Part shown: piece by piece, positions 17,320-59,514 of the stretch
Numbering within the stretch: position 1 is the first letter of the stretch
Layout of the letters: each line of letters starts with the position of its first letter
IMG/VR virus record: IMGVR_UViG_3300022187_000017
Location: 32,001-96,000 of that record
Source: a virus
Length of the DNA: 64,000 nt
Direction: 5' to 3' (one strand)
Made by a program: the position numbers and the translations under genes
The notes under the pieces: model-generated
What the model saw: the letters and a program-made list of their open reading frames with translations, nothing else
Told to the model about the DNA's origin: nothing
The model's database searches: none

Positions 17320-18108
17320 TTACATCACCCAATCCTCTACTATATCTGGCTCTACTCCTGCCTCCAGAGCTTCCTGTACTGACTTGATAGATTCTCCATT
17401 CTTGAATGTATGGCCTATCTGCTCCTCTACAGCTACATACTCAGCTAATAACTCTGGGTTCTCTTTACCTGCTATTAGGAGTGCATTGAATGGACTGAAG
17501 ATACAGAAACAACATGACAGCCTTGGCATCCCCAGATCATATGCTTTATGATACTCCAGATTGTTACCCTTGATCACATCCCAGACCTTCTTAGAGCTCC
17601 AGTCATGTACAGGTAGATAATCTATCACTGTCCTCTTCTTAGTGGTTAACTGCTTATTTAATGACTCCACCTTTCTCTTAGATCTGGCTGGAGACTCCTC
17701 TGCTCTGAATCCAAATACATACAGGATCTTACAAACTCCCATCTCTTTAGTTAGCTTAGTTACTACTCTAGCACCCGGGCCACGCTTGAAATCACTGGTA
17801 CACCATCTCTGTTGGCTACTTGGCCACTTACCTCTCCTCACTGCATACTCCAGAAGATCCTCCTCATAGCCATCCTTATCTCTTCTCTTGCTGTAATAGG
17901 TCTTTAGTCCCCAGTGATCAGATTGTCTCTTAACTAGCTCCTTTGTGCCTTTCCACTCAACCTTACCTAGATCCTGATGTGACACTACTAACTGATCCAG
18001 AGGATAGCACTGTTCCAATGCCATCTGAACCATTTGCCAGACAGACACTAGAGAGTCCTTCCCTCCAGATGAATTGATGATCACTAGATCATAGTCAGCT
18101 AAGATCAT
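17320..18108 (-). CDS. PAPS reductase-family (PP-loop, Fe-S) protein
   Basis: SSGGKDS PP-loop, RWCTSDFK, GFRAEESPAR, RLSCCFC. Confidence 0.88.
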   Translation of the reverse strand: MILADYDLVIINSSGGKDSLVSVWQMVQMALEQCYPLDQLVVSHQDLGKVEWKGTKELVKRQSDHWGLKTYYSKRRDKDGYEEDLLEYAVRRGKWPSSQQRWCTSDFKRGPGARVVTKLTKEMGVCKILYVFGFRAEESPARSKRKVESLNKQLTTKKRTVIDYLPVHDWSSKKVWDVIKGNNLEYHKAYDLGMPRLSCCFCIFSPFNALLIAGKENPELLAEYVAVEEQIGHTFKNGESIKSVQEALEAGVEPDIVEDWVM

Positions 18109-18859: not shown

Positions 18860-19756
18860 CTAATATTTACTCATTACACAATGGCCATGGGACATCTTGT
18901 AGTCCACCAGCTCCTGCTCTGTCATATGCCCAAACTTCTCCAGAGCTGTTTTAAGGACTTCTGGGAGAGGATCTTTCTTACCCCACACACCAAGATTCTT
19001 TTCTTCCATGTGCTCATTAGCCTTCATCTTATTGGCCTCCAGCTTCACCCAGAGGTCATATGATGCTCTGTCATATCTATACAAGTACAATAACTCCTGC
19101 AGGCTCATGAATGGACATAAGATGCAATTGGAAGGATAAGGTACCTTCTCACCTACACTGGTGATGTAATCCTGACATGCTTGCCGATCCATACCCTCTT
19201 CAATCAATGGATACTGCTTATTGATGCAAGTATTAAACCATTTCATCCCACTGGAGCCATTCTCAGAGGCTCTCTTCTCTTCTCCCTTAGCAATGCCTAT
19301 AAGTACATTGATCTTCCCGTACTTCTCAGCAAACTCATAGAATGCTGCTTTCCTACCATACTTCTCAGTGTTGTAGTTGTGATGTACATACAGCTCTAGG
19401 AACTTGTAGATAGGCCTGATCTTCAGGTTATCTGTACAAGTCTTAGGGAATGCCTTAGATCCAACTGTATTTTTGCTCTGGTAGAATTTGATCAATCCAC
19501 CCTTCCAGCTATTGGATGCCCATAGATCAGGCTCCAGATGAAAGAATGGGATCTTATGCTCATCACATAGCTCTTCTACTCTCTCCAGATACTTATCAGT
19601 ATGATCATGCTCATTTCTGGTATTAGCCATAACCACAATAAGATCACCCTTCACATATTTGGCCTTGAATACTGGATCATGTAAACACTTAAAGAGGATG
19701 GCAGTTGAATCCTGCCCTCCTCCATAAGATAACATTGTAAGCTCTTTCTTCTCCAT
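18860..19756 (-). CDS. second PP-loop/PAPS-reductase-like protein
   Basis: LSYGGGQDS, ANT..E, CTDNLKIRPI, YPLIE, R..C, SNCILCPF. Confidence 0.8.
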   Translation of the reverse strand: MEKKELTMLSYGGGQDSTAILFKCLHDPVFKAKYVKGDLIVVMANTRNEHDHTDKYLERVEELCDEHKIPFFHLEPDLWASNSWKGGLIKFYQSKNTVGSKAFPKTCTDNLKIRPIYKFLELYVHHNYNTEKYGRKAAFYEFAEKYGKINVLIGIAKGEEKRASENGSSGMKWFNTCINKQYPLIEEGMDRQACQDYITSVGEKVPYPSNCILCPFMSLQELLYLYRYDRASYDLWVKLEANKMKANEHMEEKNLGVWGKKDPLPEVLKTALEKFGHMTEQELVDYKMSHGHCVMSKY

Positions 19757-20079: not shown

Positions 20080-20109
20080 GATTTGATGTTTTTGTTGTTA
20101 TTAATGATG

Positions 20110-20140
20110 TAAATATAGTTACTATATCTCATTCCTGCAA
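20110..20140 (-). promoter_or_regulatory. Bacteroidota sigmaA-type promoter
   Basis: TTG-N20-TATATTTA. Confidence 0.75.
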
Positions 20141-20293: not shown

Positions 20294-20333
20294 AAAAAAG
20301 GGAGGATTTACGATCCATTACTGGATTCCTCCC
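20294..20333 (-). terminator. terminator ending the tmRNA transcript
   Basis: GGGAGGA...TCCTCCC stem enclosing ATCCA-GTAA-TGGAT, followed by T6. Confidence 0.8.
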
Positions 20334-20575
20334 ATACGTCTTATGCAGCCATTCTAAATGGTGCAGTAGATTGTTGTATAACTTCTGGAGTTATAATTAA
20401 AATAGCCTCCTTTATCGCTTCTTTACGCTGTCAAAACCAGTCTACCCCATGTTCCCAGATATAGTGCTGGGATCACTTCCACTTTTTAAACAACCTCCTT
20501 CTGGAGATAGTGGAGTAGATGGGAGTCGAACCCATGTCCAAACATAATCCACAATAATATCAACGAACTACTTTG
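20294..20575 (-). ncRNA. ssrA: circularly permuted (two-piece) tmRNA
   Basis: The acceptor piece GGAC-ATGGG-TTCGACT-CCCAT-CTACTCC-A (ending 20511) lies upstream of the 5' end GGGGTAGACTGGTTTTGAC (starting 20448). 7-bp acceptor stem with G3.U70 and A73; three inter-piece helices; tag frame ending APFRMAA* (stop 20341-20343). Confidence 0.92.
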
Positions 20576-20578
20576 CTG

Positions 20579-20586
20579 TAAAGATA
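20579..20586 (-). promoter_or_regulatory. -7 promoter element for the tmRNA
   Basis: TATCTTTA (TAnnTTTG-like) a few nt upstream of the first paired base of the acceptor piece. Confidence 0.55.
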
Positions 20587-22023: not shown

Positions 22024-22186
22024 AGCTTAGTTGCTTAAAGTTTGTATTGCATCCTCATAAGATAGATCTTCTCCTCTTTCCTCTGCCTGCATCATGGCTA
22101 ATCTAGCCAAGTGATGTAGATCTAATCCTATTAAAAACTCTCTTTTTTCTGTTGTCATGATATGCTATTTTGCTGTTATTCTGGTG

Positions 22187-22217
22187 TAAATATATACTAA
22201 CTATATTTAATACACAA
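22187..22217 (-). promoter_or_regulatory. Bacteroidota sigmaA-type promoter
   Basis: TTG-N20-TATATTTA. Confidence 0.75.
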
Positions 22218-24532: not shown

Positions 24533-25366
24533 TCATTTATTTTTATCTACCAGTACCATCCCATAGTCATTTACTCCCTCTGGGATCTGTAGGCCCTGCT
24601 TCTTGATCATCTCATTATTCTTGAATCCACTATAATTCACCTGATGATGCCATCTCTCATACCTCCAGACTACCTTCACAACATCAGGATGCTGCCTCTG
24701 GAGACTCTCAGCAAACTCTTTCCTGTTATTGGTGTCTTTATATACCTCATCAGTATTGCCTCCCTTCATCTTCATTGTTGTGGCCTTCTGCTGTATGAAT
24801 GCATTGAATAGGACTGTTGGATGCCCATCCTTCAGGATCCTAAGACATAGATCTGTATCCTCATTGTACTTACCTCTCCACCTGTACTCCAGATCATTCT
24901 TGATCAATGTGCAGCTGTAGATCCTGTTATTCCTTGAGAATGCTGGCATGACTGTCTTGGCCTTGGCAAAGTGATCATACTGGAATCCTGCTAGTGCTAT
25001 GTTCTCATATCGATCTACAAAGATCTCTGCACACCTGAAGATAGTGCCATCTGTCACCTTCACCTGCAGGTTCCTGTTGAGTCTATTGAACTGCTCTATA
25101 TTGTCATCTAATAACCAGTGCCTCTCATGGCCTTCTGCAATAGAATGCTCCCAGACATAGTTTCTAGCTGGAATGGATCCCTGCCCTAAATTACTGAATG
25201 GGAGCTTTAATATCTTCTCTGGATCAATTACCTCAGCATAGCTATCATACTCCTGTGGCTCCACAACTATACGATAAGGGACTTTCATCCTCTCCAGAGT
25301 CTTAGATGTCATCCTTGACTTCCATCTGCCTTTAGAAATGATATAAACTGGATATTTAGGATTCAT
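24533..25366 (-). CDS. GREB1-like/TET-associated GT-A glycosyltransferase
   Basis: YPVYIISKGR, VVEPQE...Y, ARN...EH, HWLLDDNI (DxD-like), RWRGKYNEDTDL, GGNTD, RWHH.V.Y. Confidence 0.75.
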   Translation of the reverse strand: MNPKYPVYIISKGRWKSRMTSKTLERMKVPYRIVVEPQEYDSYAEVIDPEKILKLPFSNLGQGSIPARNYVWEHSIAEGHERHWLLDDNIEQFNRLNRNLQVKVTDGTIFRCAEIFVDRYENIALAGFQYDHFAKAKTVMPAFSRNNRIYSCTLIKNDLEYRWRGKYNEDTDLCLRILKDGHPTVLFNAFIQQKATTMKMKGGNTDEVYKDTNNRKEFAESLQRQHPDVVKVVWRYERWHHQVNYSGFKNNEMIKKQGLQIPEGVNDYGMVLVDKNK

Positions 25367-33263: not shown

Positions 33264-33292
33264 GATGTACGATTTTTGTTGTTATCTGGGTG

Positions 33293-33323
33293 TAAATATA
33301 TAACCAATATATTTATTGTGCAA
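33293..33323 (-). promoter_or_regulatory. Bacteroidota sigmaA-type promoter
   Basis: TTG-N20-TATATTTA. Confidence 0.75.
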
Positions 33324-58868: not shown

Positions 58869-59463
58869 TGTTCTTTATTCTCTCAGTTATGTTATCTATA
58901 AACTTGTAGACATCTTCAAAGAAGAAGTACCTACCCAATATCTCTTTATGGTTAGTTACACCTCCAGCTCTTGCATGCCACTCCTTAATCCTATATTCAT
59001 TTAATCCTAGTAGATCTAAGTGCTCAACTAAATCTTCAAAGGTAGATTCTCTAATTACTATTCTTAGAGACAGCTTCCCTGAAACTGTATTTCTGAGTCC
59101 AGCTATCTTTAAACAAACTTTACCTCCCCTTATTAATGAGTACCATAATTTTCTCTCTTGAAGTATCCATCCTAACTCTTTACATTTTTTCCCTAGTGCA
59201 ATTATCTCTGGAAGAAATTGGTATTGATCCACATCAATTAGAAGTCCTGTTCTAAAACTTGGATCTGGAGCAGTGAATATACTCTTACCTTCTAATATTG
59301 ATGTTGTGTCAATAAGAGAAGAAAGGTCATCTAAGTCACTTACCCAGTCATTACCATTATCAATAAGCCTTTGTTGTAGTTCAAATATAGCCTCCTCTTC
59401 TGTCTTTGGAACCTCACCTAATAACTCTCCAGCCTTGATTAATAAATTATCAATGTCACTCAT
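58789..59463 (-). CDS. hypothetical protein
   Basis: Start moved to the ATG at 59463; promoter TTG-N20-TATATTTG at 59480-59510. Confidence 0.6.
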   Translation of the reverse strand: MSDIDNLLIKAGELLGEVPKTEEEAIFELQQRLIDNGNDWVSDLDDLSSLIDTTSILEGKSIFTAPDPSFRTGLLIDVDQYQFLPEIIALGKKCKELGWILQERKLWYSLIRGGKVCLKIAGLRNTVSGKLSLRIVIRESTFEDLVEHLDLLGLNEYRIKEWHARAGGVTNHKEILGRYFFFEDVYKFIDNITERIKNNAKTEKMAGLQLISSPKPSSRKAKGK

Positions 59464-59514
59464 ATTATGTTTCAATTTTCAAATATAGTAATTATACCTA
59501 ACCCTCACAACTAA

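What the first reader, a model, noticed from the sequence alone, without database searches (positions are those of the whole stretch)
20294..20586. Circularly permuted, two-piece tmRNA gene in a Bacteroidota phage
Seen (minus strand, in order): a -7-type promoter element (20579-20586); the tmRNA 3' half ...GGAC-ATGGG-TTCGACT-CCCAT-CTACTCC-A (ending 20511, followed by CTA rather than CCA); a 62-nt intervening segment (20449-20510) with two hairpins (CTCC/GGAG and TCCCAG/CTGGGA); the 5' half GGGGTAG-ACTGGTTTTGAC starting at 20448; a tag frame ending APFRMAA-TAA; a terminator. The acceptor stem is 7 bp with G3.U70 and A73. Three further helices zip the two pieces together: 20423-29/20541-47, 20412-18/20551-57 and 20399-407/20566-74. 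Established: G3.U70 is the alanine identity element and C-terminal AA is the ClpXP-type degron. Permuted tmRNAs are known from Alphaproteobacteria, some marine cyanobacteria, a betaproteobacterial lineage and some mitochondria. The Bacteroidota and phage tmRNAs I know of are one-piece. Inference: this may be an independent permutation, giving the phage its own ribosome-rescue/tagging RNA that uses host RNase P, CCA-adding enzyme, AlaRS and SmpB. It could substitute for a host tmRNA cleaved by anti-phage nucleases. I cannot confirm that this lineage is uncatalogued.
Basis: partly seen in the sequence, partly recalled or inferred. Interest (0 to 1): 0.92.

Follow-up and report, generated by a model that had tools for sequence, protein, structure and literature searches.

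The report
Two-piece tmRNA gene in Bacteroidota phage
A roughly 106-kb phage that most likely infects Bacteroidota carries a genuine "back-to-front" (two-piece) gene for tmRNA, the RNA that frees stalled ribosomes. The same kind of gene is already annotated in crAss-like phages and in a cultured Chryseobacterium phage, so this is a new member of a little-described phage family, not a first.

Summary
On the minus strand at 20586-20294 lie, in order: a Bacteroidota-type -7 promoter box, the 3' half of a tmRNA tRNA-like domain, a 62-nt spacer, the 5' half, a tag frame ending APFRMAA-stop, and a terminator. Rfam's tmRNA_permuted model scores 56.1 bits (cut-off 47). ARAGORN misses the gene.

Two narrow pattern scans found the same layout in 99 other IMG/VR viral contigs. 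It is also in the cultured Chryseobacterium phage MA9V-3. Across 87 unique genes, G3.U70 is invariant while the acceptor and T stems covary.

The tRNA-like domain is of the Bacteroidia one-piece type. The alpha, beta and cyano lineage models all fail. On a core tree the gene lies apart from alpha-type two-piece tmRNAs. An independent, phage-borne permutation is therefore likely.

The novelty claim is weakened:
- A 2022 supplementary table lists ARAGORN "Permuted" tmRNAs in 13 crAss-like phages and in Cellulophaga phage phi4:1.
- RefSeq and GenBank records of cr7_1 and MA9V-3 annotate these genes as tmRNA.
- This scan reported the same kind before on other DNA (e1-5869850).

No paper I could search describes them as a lineage. 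Processing, charging and tagging are inferred, not shown.

The parts
20579..20586 (-). Promoter-like -7 box TATCTTTA (Bacteroidota type, TAnnTTT[G/A]). The transcript start is inferred near 20574.
   Evidence: Read. The related box CTATATTT[G/A] is 4.3 times denser in this phage's intergenic spacers than in its coding DNA, mostly 15-60 nt before ORF starts. A TTTAC-type motif sits at the same relative place in several relatives.
20511..20574 (-). Acceptor piece (about 64 nt plus an added CCA). It holds the 5' strands of helix P2, GGAC, the T arm, the acceptor 3' strand and A73. The 5' end is inferred.
   Evidence: RF04321 alignment and the family model R1 at 136 bits.
20566..20574 (-). Outer P2 strand (P2c). 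It pairs with 20399-20407 (9 pairs, 3 of them G.U).
   Evidence: Read. In a fixed register only 51% of cells pair across the family. Register-free, cognate strands pair better than non-cognate ones in 30 of 31 genes.
20551..20557 (-). Middle P2 strand (P2b). It pairs with 20412-20418 (7 pairs, 2 of them G.U).
   Evidence: Read. Rfam pairs nearly the same bases. Across the family 49% of cells pair in a fixed register.
20539..20547 (-). Inner P2 strand (P2a). It pairs with 20423-20430.
   Evidence: 81% of cells pair and 5 of 8 pairs change on both sides. The G of GGAC pairs with the C of GAC in all 31 genes.
20519..20535 (-). T arm: ATGGG, T loop TTCGACT, CCCAT.
   Evidence: 99.4% of cells pair, with compensatory changes at 3 of 5 pairs. 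There are 14 different T stems in 87 genes.
20511..20518 (-). Acceptor 3' strand CTACTCC (U70 at 20514) and discriminator A73 (20511). It is followed by CTA, not CCA.
   Evidence: It pairs 7/7 with 20442-20448. G3.U70 is present in 87 of 87 genes and A73 in 86 of 87.
20449..20510 (-). Intervening segment of 62 nt with two hairpins, presumed to be discarded.
   Evidence: Folds at -16.9 kcal/mol, z -2.2. Spacers in the family are 36-70 nt and are not conserved in sequence.
20296..20448 (-). Coding piece (about 153 nt). It holds the acceptor 5' strand GGGGTAG, the D-loop analogue, the P2 3' strands, the tag frame and the terminator. The 5' end at G1 (20448) would be made by RNase P; this is inferred.
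20430..20441 (-). D-loop analogue ACTGGTTTTGAC, of the Bacteroidia type.
   Evidence: The same TGGTTTTGACAGC signature occurs in Bacteroidia one-piece tmRNAs, and the alpha-type two-piece tmRNAs differ.
20341..20388 (-). Tag reading frame. By homology to relatives the tag is PEVIQQSTAPFRMAA, then TAA (20343-20341). The resume codon CCA (20388-20386) is inferred and unusual.
   Evidence: The frame was read. Relatives have 15-codon tags in register (GKTFEMFHAPLRAVA, GKVVQMYNPSLRAVA, SKVINFFPAPLRAVA).
20344..20365 (-). Hairpin resembling helix 5 over the end of the tag frame.
   Evidence: Folded. The stem covaries among relatives (CCGC/GCGG, CCAU/AUGG, CCGG/CUGG; sequences).
20294..20333 (-). Intrinsic terminator: hairpin at 20333-20300 and a U run at 20299-20294.
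   Evidence: -17.1 kcal/mol, z -3.3, 0 of 200 shuffles as good. The simple terminator scan missed it because its loop limit is 8.

Best explanation
This is a working gene for a two-piece tmRNA carried by a lytic-type phage of about 106 kb, probably of Bacteroidota.

**Proposed mechanism (every step below is inferred)**
1. One transcript of about 280 nt starts just after a Bacteroidota -7 promoter box and ends at the terminator.
2. Host RNase P cuts before G1 (20448).
3. The trailer after A73-C74 is removed, and the host CCA-adding enzyme completes the end. The host's own CCA-less tmRNA gene needs the same pathway.
4. The 62-nt spacer is lost.
5. The acceptor piece (about 67 nt) and the coding piece (about 153 nt) stay together through the 7-bp acceptor stem and helix P2.
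6. Host AlaRS charges the RNA through G3.U70 and A73.
7. Host SmpB and EF-Tu bring it to ribosomes stalled on broken mRNAs.
8. Translation resumes near 20388 and adds a tag of about 15 residues ending MAA, which marks the protein for host proteases and frees the ribosome.

**Likely benefit to the phage (inferred):** more ribosome rescue while mRNAs are being degraded during infection.

**Origin:** the gene belongs to a phage-borne family of minimal two-piece tmRNAs with no evident pseudoknot. Their tRNA-like domain is of the Bacteroidia one-piece type, so the permutation most likely arose independently of the alpha, beta and cyano lineages.

**Shown here:** the sequence anatomy, the model match, covariation across relatives, and family and host signals.
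**Inferred:** transcription, processing, charging, tagging and the benefit to the phage.
For: **Model match and anatomy**
- RF04321 scores 56.1 bits against a cut-off of 47. All elements are at the stated coordinates.

**The same gene order elsewhere**
- It occurs in 101 loci: 99 other IMG/VR contigs, phage MA9V-3 and the window.
- Among 87 unique genes, G3.U70 is present in 87 of 87, A73 in 86 of 87 and C74 in 86 of 87. These sit on 18 different acceptor stems and 14 different T stems.

**Pair counts on 31 genes**
- T arm: 99.4% of cells paired.
- Acceptor stem: 93% paired in the alignment, and 7/7 when tested free of register.
- P2a: 81% paired, with changes on both sides.
- Covariation score 0.347 against 0.155 in shuffles (0 of 500 shuffles as high) and at most 0.18 when the partners are slid.

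**Outer P2 helices**
- Cognate strands pair at -11.25 kcal/mol against -7.88 for non-cognate strands.
- The cognate pair is better in 30 of 31 genes, and in 22 of 26 cluster representatives (p 2.5e-6).

**Tag**
- Tag frames end in Ala-rich C-termini plus a stop. ARAGORN of 87 genes as permuted tmRNA.

**Host signals**
- TerL and PolIII-alpha best hits are Bacteroides, Chryseobacterium, Cellulophaga and Tenacibaculum phages.
- The TAnnTTTG box is enriched 4.3-fold in intergenic spacers.
- Bacteroidia one-piece tmRNA genes share TGGTTTTGACAGC...TGTTTGGAC and likewise lack CCA but keep C74 (6 of 6).
- No SmpB is found in the phage.

**Origin**
- Alpha, beta and cyano models stay below their cut-offs on 6 of 6 family members tested.
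- The family model R1 gives 81-138 bits on members but at most 29 bits on 30 alpha-type cellular genes.
- RF04321 gives 113-162 bits on those cellular genes against 52-65 on the phage genes.
- On the core tree, 23 alpha-type genes form one clade (SH-aLRT 97) that excludes all 25 phage genes. The phage genes mix with Bacteroidia-type one-piece tmRNAs.
- The window is sister to a phage one-piece tmRNA (support 96) and shares its exact 29-nt 3' half.
- In one genome of each of about 185,000 species, the pattern gave only one permuted gene, on a 2.6-kb crAss-like fragment.
Against: - There are no expression, processing, charging or tagging data for this gene or for any relative.
- ARAGORN does not call it.
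- The RF04321 score is only 9 bits above the cut-off, and scores of 60-65 bits can be false.
- The window's own P2 duplex is no better than shuffles (z -0.9).
- Its two outer helices are not conserved in a fixed register (49-51% paired, the same as the slid controls).
- The homologous resume codon is CCA (Pro), not the usual Gly or Ala codon, so the tag start is uncertain.
- No pseudoknot is evident, although PK1 matters in studied tmRNAs.
- Part of the apparent tag conservation is explained by a covarying hairpin.
- No second assembly of this exact gene was found.
- The origin claim rests on 72 alignment columns, and no beta-type or cyano-type sequences were in the tree.
Confidence: 0.8

Rival explanations
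1. Decoy rather than rescuer. The RNA, or its tRNA-like part, binds host SmpB and blocks the host's own trans-translation. A TLD-only molecule, like the one in mycobacteriophage DS6A, inhibits tmRNA in this way.
For: - A TLD-only phage molecule and its inhibitory effect are on record (PMC4131195 and PMC11915505).
- The phage has no SmpB of its own.
- The gene is stripped of pseudoknots.
- The resume codon is atypical, and ARAGORN fails to call a tag.
Against: - A full tag frame with an Ala-Ala end and a stop is kept in the window and in relatives. ARAGORN of 87 genes.
- Helix 5, the terminator and the resume context (A-rich, then GGC AAA in most relatives) are conserved.
- A decoy would need none of these.
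Confidence: 0.08
2. The permuted form was captured by horizontal transfer from one of the known two-piece lineages (alpha, beta or cyano). It then diverged in phages, rather than arising by a separate permutation.
For: - Marine phages do carry alpha-type two-piece tmRNAs taken from hosts (PMC9004378).
- The beta and cyano models give partial matches of 30-49 bits.
- I could not put beta-type or cyano-type sequences in the tree.
Against: - All three lineage models stay far below their cut-offs and match only the tRNA-like core.
- Alpha-type genes have a different T loop (GGCGGTA) and D analogue (AGGATCGAC), and they form a separate clade.
- The phage genes share the Bacteroidia signature and the Bacteroidia CCA-less 3' end.
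Confidence: 0.12
3. Artefact. Either a tRNA-like end lies by chance before the 5' half of an ordinary tmRNA, or the order of the halves is a mis-assembly.
For: - RF04321 does give 60-65 bits on a tRNA followed by a one-piece tmRNA.
- 13 of 58 viral pattern hits and 27 of 28 genome pattern hits were of that kind.
- No second assembly of this exact gene was found.
Against: - The two acceptor strands pair 7/7 with G3.U70, which the artefacts do not (at most 6/7).
- No tRNA is called, and no 3' tmRNA half follows the tag.
- The gene lies mid-contig between a promoter box and a terminator.
- The same order is seen in about 100 independent contigs and in a complete cultured phage genome.
Confidence: 0.02

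Closest known systems
Permuted tmRNA genes annotated in crAss-like phages (for example uncultured phage cr7_1, NC_055895.1, Crassvirales) and in Chryseobacterium phage MA9V-3 (PV245944.1)
   Same: - The gene order is the same: P2 strand, T arm, acceptor 3' strand, a spacer of 57-70 nt, GGG-start acceptor 5' strand, D analogue, tag, terminator.
- G3.U70 and A73 are present and no CCA is encoded.
- There is no pseudoknot region after the tag.
- The family model R1 gives 112-113 bits on both, and RF04321 gives 64.7 bits on MA9V-3.
- Both are already labelled tmRNA in the records.
   Different: - The non-spacer columns of the window's gene are 69% identical to its nearest family member found, L045.
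- Tags differ: DNVNNIVDYTNVA, GNVIDINKYVAKLEVAA, and here ...APFRMAA.
- The flanking genes are different.
- ARAGORN calls those genes but not this one.
Two-piece tmRNA of Alphaproteobacteria (Caulobacter type; Keiler et al. 2000; Rfam RF01849) and the alpha-type copies in marine phages (Melnitz, pelagimyophages; PMC9004378)
   Same: The gene is circularly permuted, a spacer is removed by tRNA-processing enzymes, the two pieces are held by the acceptor stem and P2, and a tag frame lies on the piece that starts at G1.
   Different: - RF01849 finds nothing in this phage and gives 9-26 bits on relatives (cut-off 50).
- Alpha genes have T loop GGCGGTA, D analogue AGGATCGAC, an encoded CCA and extra structured regions.
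- They form a separate clade.
One-piece tmRNA of Bacteroidia (Rfam RF00023), and one-piece tmRNAs in other viral contigs (L005, L006)
   Same: - They share the tRNA-like domain signature (TGGTTTTGACAGC ... TGTTTGGAC, T loop TTCGAnT) and the same CCA-less end with C74.
- L005 and L006 share the window's exact 29-nt 3' half, and L006 is its sister on the core tree.
   Different: - Those genes are colinear, 346-399 nt, with four pseudoknot regions and 9-residue tags such as GENNYALAA.
- Here the order is permuted, everything between the tag and P2 is gone, and the tag is about 15 residues.
Mycobacteriophage DS6A tRNA-like-domain-only tmRNA
   Same: It is a phage-borne, strongly reduced tmRNA relative (PMC4131195).
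   Different: DS6A lacks a tag frame, whereas this gene keeps one with a stop codon and a helix-5-like hairpin.

Membership tests
tmRNA, permuted (two-piece) gene form (Rfam RF04321) | Score at or above the family's gathering score | tested here: met
   56.1 bits against 47, full model 1-213. Matches of 60-65 bits can be false, so the features below were checked one by one.
tmRNA, permuted (two-piece) gene form (Rfam RF04321) | 7-bp acceptor stem with the alanine identity pair G3.U70 and discriminator A73 | tested here: met
   GGGGTAG and CTACTCC pair 7/7, followed by A. G3.U70 is kept in 87 of 87 relatives over 18 different stems.
tmRNA, permuted (two-piece) gene form (Rfam RF04321) | T arm with GGAC and a TTCGAnT loop, and a D-loop analogue without a D stem | tested here: met
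   Read. The T arm is 99.4% paired with compensatory changes.
tmRNA, permuted (two-piece) gene form (Rfam RF04321) | The 3' half of the tRNA-like domain lies upstream of the 5' half, and no colinear alternative exists | tested here: met
   The order was read. There is no other acceptor partner and no tmRNA 3' half after the tag.
tmRNA, permuted (two-piece) gene form (Rfam RF04321) | Helix P2 joining the two pieces | tested here: inconclusive
   The inner part is supported (81% paired, changes on both sides). The outer two helices are not conserved in a fixed register (49-51%), although cognate strands pair better than non-cognate ones in 30 of 31 genes. The window alone gives z -0.9.
tmRNA, permuted (two-piece) gene form (Rfam RF04321) | Tag reading frame with a hydrophobic, Ala-rich C-terminus and a stop codon, entered at a resume codon | tested here: inconclusive
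   The frame ends FRMAA-TAA and is in register with 15-codon tags of relatives. The homologous resume codon is CCA, and ARAGORN calls no tag.
tmRNA, permuted (two-piece) gene form (Rfam RF04321) | Pseudoknots (PK1 before the tag, and others after it in most tmRNAs) | tested here: not met
   Only about 10 nt lie between P2 and the resume site, and only a terminator follows the tag. This was judged by inspection, not by a pseudoknot predictor. RF04321 itself models no pseudoknots (PMC11915505).
tmRNA, permuted (two-piece) gene form (Rfam RF04321) | Cleavage into two RNAs, CCA addition, alanylation, SmpB binding and trans-translation | not testable with these tools
   Needs RNA and protein work in infected cells.
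alpha_tmRNA (RF01849) | Gathering score and lineage-specific structure | tested here: not met
   No match in this phage. Relatives score 9-26 bits against 50. The T loop and D analogue differ, and the clade is separate.
beta_tmRNA (RF01850) | Gathering score over the whole model | tested here: not met
   31.5 bits against 84, model positions 81-162 only. Relatives score 30-49 bits. No beta-type sequences could be fetched for a tree.
cyano_tmRNA (RF01851) | Gathering score over the whole model | tested here: not met
   30.3 bits against 70, model positions 51-126 only. Relatives score 27-43 bits. No cyano-type sequences could be fetched.
Standard one-piece tmRNA (RF00023) | Colinear 5' and 3' halves with pseudoknots between them | tested here: not met
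   Only a truncated 3'-end match of 28.9 bits against 47.

The most novel reading that the evidence does not exclude
The Bacteroidia-type phage genes, this one included, are a fourth, independently permuted lineage of two-piece tmRNA. On this reading the lineage exists only on phages, has lost every pseudoknot, has not been described as a lineage in print, and is missed in about a quarter of cases by the standard finder. A second phage sub-class (CCA-encoded, ANDxxALAA tags) would suggest that permutation happened or spread more than once in phages.
Probability: 0.5. Interest if true: 0.55.

Novelty: new member of a known kind. Interest (0 to 1): 0.36.

Why it matters
Phages of the main gut and marine Bacteroidota hosts, crAss-like phages among them, appear to bring their own stripped-down ribosome-rescue RNA. 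If it works with no evident pseudoknot and in two pieces of about 65 and 150 nt, it is close to a natural minimal tmRNA. That is useful for asking what trans-translation really requires and why phages invest in it.

For annotation:
- ARAGORN, which phage annotation pipelines such as Pharokka use, missed 24 of 87 such genes, this one included.
- Rfam's general model catches them only just above its threshold. At the same score level it also catches false 'tRNA plus tmRNA' pairs.

The cultured Chryseobacterium phage MA9V-3 makes the question testable at the bench.

Tried and rejected
- **ARAGORN** on the window and on the whole phage genome found nothing.
- **BLASTN** of the gene, and of relative L049, against 50,697 phage records gave no match. 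Only the crAss-type relative found annotated records.
- **TerL-based search** for close relatives in IMG/VR found none.
- **Two metagenome scans** for a second assembly of this exact gene found none.
- **Fetching cyano-type and beta-type two-piece tmRNAs** failed. There were 0 hits in 81 cyanobacterial genomes and 0 in 151 Burkholderiales genomes, with silent controls. These screens are insensitive, so I give little weight to the 0 of 151 Bacteroidota result for RF04321.
- **Fixed-register counts** for the two outer helices, on both the MAFFT alignment and the model-fitted alignment, equal the slid controls. I replaced them with a register-free cognate versus non-cognate test.
- **Unconstrained cofolding** of the two pieces recovers the acceptor stem but otherwise gives a different fold, and is not informative.
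- **A sigma-70-type promoter reading** (TTTACA, 17 nt, TATTAT) was rejected. Spacing is not kept in relatives, and the genome-wide signal is the Bacteroidota -7 box.
- **Synteny** around the gene is not shared with relatives.
- **A hairpin that presents the resume codon** exists only in a subset, so it is not a family feature.
Full report
**What is in the sequence**

- a box TATCTTTA at 20586-20579;
- GGAC, then the T arm ATGGG/TTCGACT/CCCAT at 20535-20519;
- the acceptor 3' strand CTACTCC at 20518-20512, and A73 at 20511 followed by CTA;
- a 62-nt spacer at 20510-20449 with two hairpins (-16.9 kcal/mol, z -2.2);
- GGGGTAG at 20448-20442, which pairs 7/7 with the upstream strand and gives G3.U70;
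- the D-loop analogue ACTGGTTTTGAC;
- a frame ending APFRMAA-TAA, with the stop at 20343-20341;
- a hairpin at 20333-20300 (-17.1 kcal/mol, z -3.3) followed by six U.

Rfam's tmRNA_permuted model (RF04321) matches 20556-20341 at 56.1 bits. The gathering score is 47 and the E-value is 3.2e-8 for the whole window. ARAGORN reports nothing in the window or in the whole phage genome.

**Is it a false positive?**

RF04321 at this score level can be fooled. Two hits of 60-65 bits in proteobacterial genomes turned out to be a tRNA followed by an ordinary one-piece tmRNA. The same arrangement accounts for 13 of 58 viral pattern hits and 27 of 28 bacterial pattern hits.

The window is not of that kind:
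- the two acceptor strands pair 7/7, whereas the artefacts reach at most 6/7;
- no tRNA is called;
- the only fitting acceptor 3' strand lies upstream;
- nothing tmRNA-like follows the tag down to 19400.

**Relatives and covariation**

Two narrow DNA patterns were scanned over IMG/VR. With the cultured Chryseobacterium phage MA9V-3 and the window, they gave 101 loci with the same gene order, 87 of them unique. Across the 87 unique genes:
- G3.U70 is present in 87 of 87, A73 in 86 and C74 in 86;
- the acceptor stem takes 18 different forms and the T stem 14;
- spacers are 36-70 nt long and are not conserved.

Pairs were counted on 31 non-redundant genes. The results were almost the same on the plain MAFFT alignment and on the model-fitted one:

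| Helix | Cells paired |
|---|---|
| T arm | 99.4% |
| Acceptor stem | 90-93% (the misses are register shifts) |
| Inner P2 (P2a) | 77-81%, with changes on both sides at 5 of 8 pairs |
| Two outer helices, in the window's register | 45-51%, no better than the slid controls |

The covariation score is 0.347, against 0.155 in shuffles (0 of 500 as high) and at most 0.18 when the partners are slid.

By eye the outer helices exist in shifted registers: AAAAC/GTTTT, AAACAA/TTGTTT, CCACAA/TTGTGG, and here AAAGTAG/CTATTTT. A register-free test agrees. Cognate outer strands pair at -11.25 kcal/mol on average, against -7.88 for non-cognate strands. The cognate pair is better in 30 of 31 genes and in 22 of 26 cluster representatives (p 2.5e-6). 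The window's own duplex is unremarkable against shuffles (z -0.9).

The two outer ones are plausible and fit a family-wide trend, but they are not proven for this gene.

**The phage and its host**

The window is bases 32001-96000 of an IMG/VR virus record of 105,777 bp, estimated 98% complete. It encodes a portal, a large terminase, a PolIII-alpha-type polymerase, a primase, a helicase and a ribonucleotide reductase, all on one strand.

Several signals point to a Bacteroidota host:
- The best hits among cultured phages are Bacteroides phages DAC16-23 and SJC03 for TerL (36% identity). For the polymerase they are Chryseobacterium phage MA9V-3 (36.6%), Cellulophaga phages and a Tenacibaculum phage.
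- The Bacteroidota -7 promoter box TAnnTTTG, mostly as CTATATTTG, occurs at 2.66 per kb in the 44 intergenic spacers against 0.62 per kb in coding DNA. It usually lies 15-60 nt before an ORF start.
- The box before the tmRNA gene (ACTATCTTTAC) is a one-off variant of that consensus.
- Sampled Bacteroidia one-piece tmRNA genes share the signature TGGTTTTGACAGC ... TGTTTGGAC. In 6 of 6 they lack an encoded CCA while keeping C74, exactly as here.

The phage has no SmpB gene and no tRNA genes.

**Which lineage**

- The alpha model finds nothing in this phage. The beta model gives 31.5 bits (cut-off 84) and the cyano model 30.3 bits (cut-off 70), and both cover only the tRNA-like core.
- Five other family members also stay below all three cut-offs.
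- RF04321 gives 113-162 bits on 30 cellular two-piece genes, but only 52-65 bits on the phage genes.
- A model built from the phage family (R1) gives 81-138 bits on members and at most 29 bits on those 30 cellular genes.
- The cellular genes sampled are alpha-type, with a different T loop (GGCGGTA) and D analogue (AGGATCGAC).

A tree was built on the 72-column core. The 23 alpha-type genes form one clade (SH-aLRT 97) that excludes all 25 phage genes. The phage genes are mixed with Bacteroidia-type one-piece tmRNAs. The window is sister (support 96) to a one-piece tmRNA from another viral contig, and it shares that gene's exact 29-nt 3' half.

In one genome for each of about 185,000 bacterial and archaeal species, the pattern found a single permuted gene. 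It lies on a 2.6-kb crAss-like fragment binned with a Succinatimonas MAG.

Together this favours a phage-borne permutation of a Bacteroidia-type tmRNA. The limits are few alignment columns, an unrooted tree, and no beta-type or cyano-type sequences. My attempts to fetch those found nothing and their controls were silent.

**What is already known**

- The literature names three bacterial two-piece lineages plus mitochondria (PMC11915505).
- Permuted phage tmRNAs are on record. Buchholz et al. 2022 counted 53 two-piece calls among phage genomes (PMC9004378). Their Table S1 marks as 'Permuted' 13 crAss-like phages, Cellulophaga phage phi4:1, and phages of Stenotrophomonas, Citrobacter, Bordetella and others whose hosts have one-piece tmRNA.
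- I verified that cr7_1 (NC_055895.1, Crassvirales) carries such a gene annotated 'transfer-messenger RNA, SsrA', 100% identical to my locus L024.
- MA9V-3 (PV245944.1) carries one annotated as tmRNA. It scores 64.7 bits on RF04321 and has the same minimal layout. Its paper mentions only 'tmRNA' (PMC13120357).
- The 2025 tmRNA database counts 48 'permuted' instances in Bacteroidota genomes, typed by best-scoring model, without comment.
- This scan reported the same kind before in another genome (e1-5869850).
- I found no paper that describes these genes as a lineage or tests them.

**How it most likely works**

Shown here: the anatomy, the covariation, and the promoter and terminator signals. 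Every step below is inferred from established tRNA and tmRNA biology.
1. A transcript of about 280 nt is made.
2. RNase P cuts before G1.
3. The trailer after A73-C74 is trimmed and the CCA is completed by host enzymes, as the host's own CCA-less tmRNA gene requires.
4. The spacer is lost.
5. The two pieces are held together by the acceptor stem and P2.
6. AlaRS charges the RNA through G3.U70.
7. Host SmpB and EF-Tu deliver it to stalled ribosomes.
8. Translation resumes and adds the tag.

By register with relatives' 15-codon tags (GKTFEMFHAPLRAVA and others), the window's tag would be PEVIQQSTAPFRMAA, starting at CCA 20388-20386. A Pro resume codon is unusual. The nearest tag relative (L034) has TCA at the same place, and ARAGORN calls neither.

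Host Bacteroidia tags are 9 residues, such as GENNYALAA. The end of the frame lies in a hairpin whose stem covaries among relatives, so part of the peptide conservation is RNA-structural. Only about 10 nt separate P2 from the resume site, and only the terminator follows the tag, so I see no room for pseudoknots.

**Rivals**

- *A decoy that titrates SmpB.* This is possible for a reduced tmRNA, as in the DS6A precedent. It does not explain the retained tag frame, stop codon and helix 5.
- *Capture from a known two-piece lineage.* This is disfavoured by the models, the sequence signatures and the tree. It is not excluded for the beta and cyano lineages.
- *An artefact.* This is excluded as far as sequence alone can show, although no second assembly of this exact gene exists in the collections scanned.

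**Verdict**

This is a real permuted tmRNA gene, and the reading of its parts is correct. The host and origin ideas are largely supported. It is a new member of a phage family that public records already label as tmRNA and that a published table already flags as permuted. The part that may be new is the recognition of a phage-only, Bacteroidia-derived, pseudoknot-free lineage.

Noticed in passing
whole phage genome, for example window 20109-20117, 22186-22194, 33292-33300 (minus strand), and a 646-nt spacer near window 59044-59487: A promoter box CTATATTT[G/A] (the Bacteroidota -7 consensus TAnnTTTG) recurs in intergenic spacers, at 2.66 per kb against 0.62 per kb in coding DNA. It mostly lies 15-60 nt before ORF starts. 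Three copies sit in one 646-nt spacer.
   Followed up: partly
loci L178-L233 and L007-L064 (IMG/VR contigs): Phage permuted tmRNA genes fall into two sub-classes. With D analogue GGTTTTGACAG there are 54 unique genes, 3 of which encode CCA, with tags such as ...APLRAVA and ...DYTNVA. With GGTTTCGACAG there are 33 unique genes, 27 of which encode CCA, with proteobacterial-style tags ANDxxxALAA. This suggests different host groups and perhaps more than one origin.
   Followed up: partly
L235 148-584 and L236 360-774 (bacterial genomes G125, G109): Rfam RF04321 passes its gathering score (60-65 bits) on a tRNA lying just before an ordinary one-piece tmRNA. That is a false-positive mode at the same score level as the true phage genes.
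   Followed up: yes
window 20377-20395 (minus strand); also L034, L047, L057, L041 and MA9V-3 (L066): A small hairpin (UAUAAC/GUUAUA here) presents the presumed resume codon in its loop (UCCAGAA). It covaries in a subset of relatives (CAACU/AGUUG, AACUG/CAGUU) but is absent in others.
   Followed up: partly
window 17320-18108, 18860-19756, 24533-25366 (minus strand): Two PAPS-reductase-like proteins (phrog_424) and a glucosyltransferase of the HMC-glucosyl type (phrog_842) lie within 5 kb of the tmRNA gene. They may form a DNA-modification set.
   Followed up: no
whole window: Every ORF of 250 aa or more lies on the minus strand. GC skew is steadily negative (-0.20 to -0.27) across all 64 kb, with no switch.
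   Followed up: no
L029, L036, L042, L044, L045, L047 (IMG/VR contigs): In several relatives a tRNA gene ends only about 10-15 nt before the acceptor piece. There the piece's 5' end would be made by tRNA processing rather than by a promoter of its own.
   Followed up: no
phage genome 97820-97857 (outside the window): A weak T-arm-like match to the beta_tmRNA model (10.3 bits), although ARAGORN calls no tRNA anywhere in the genome.
   Followed up: no
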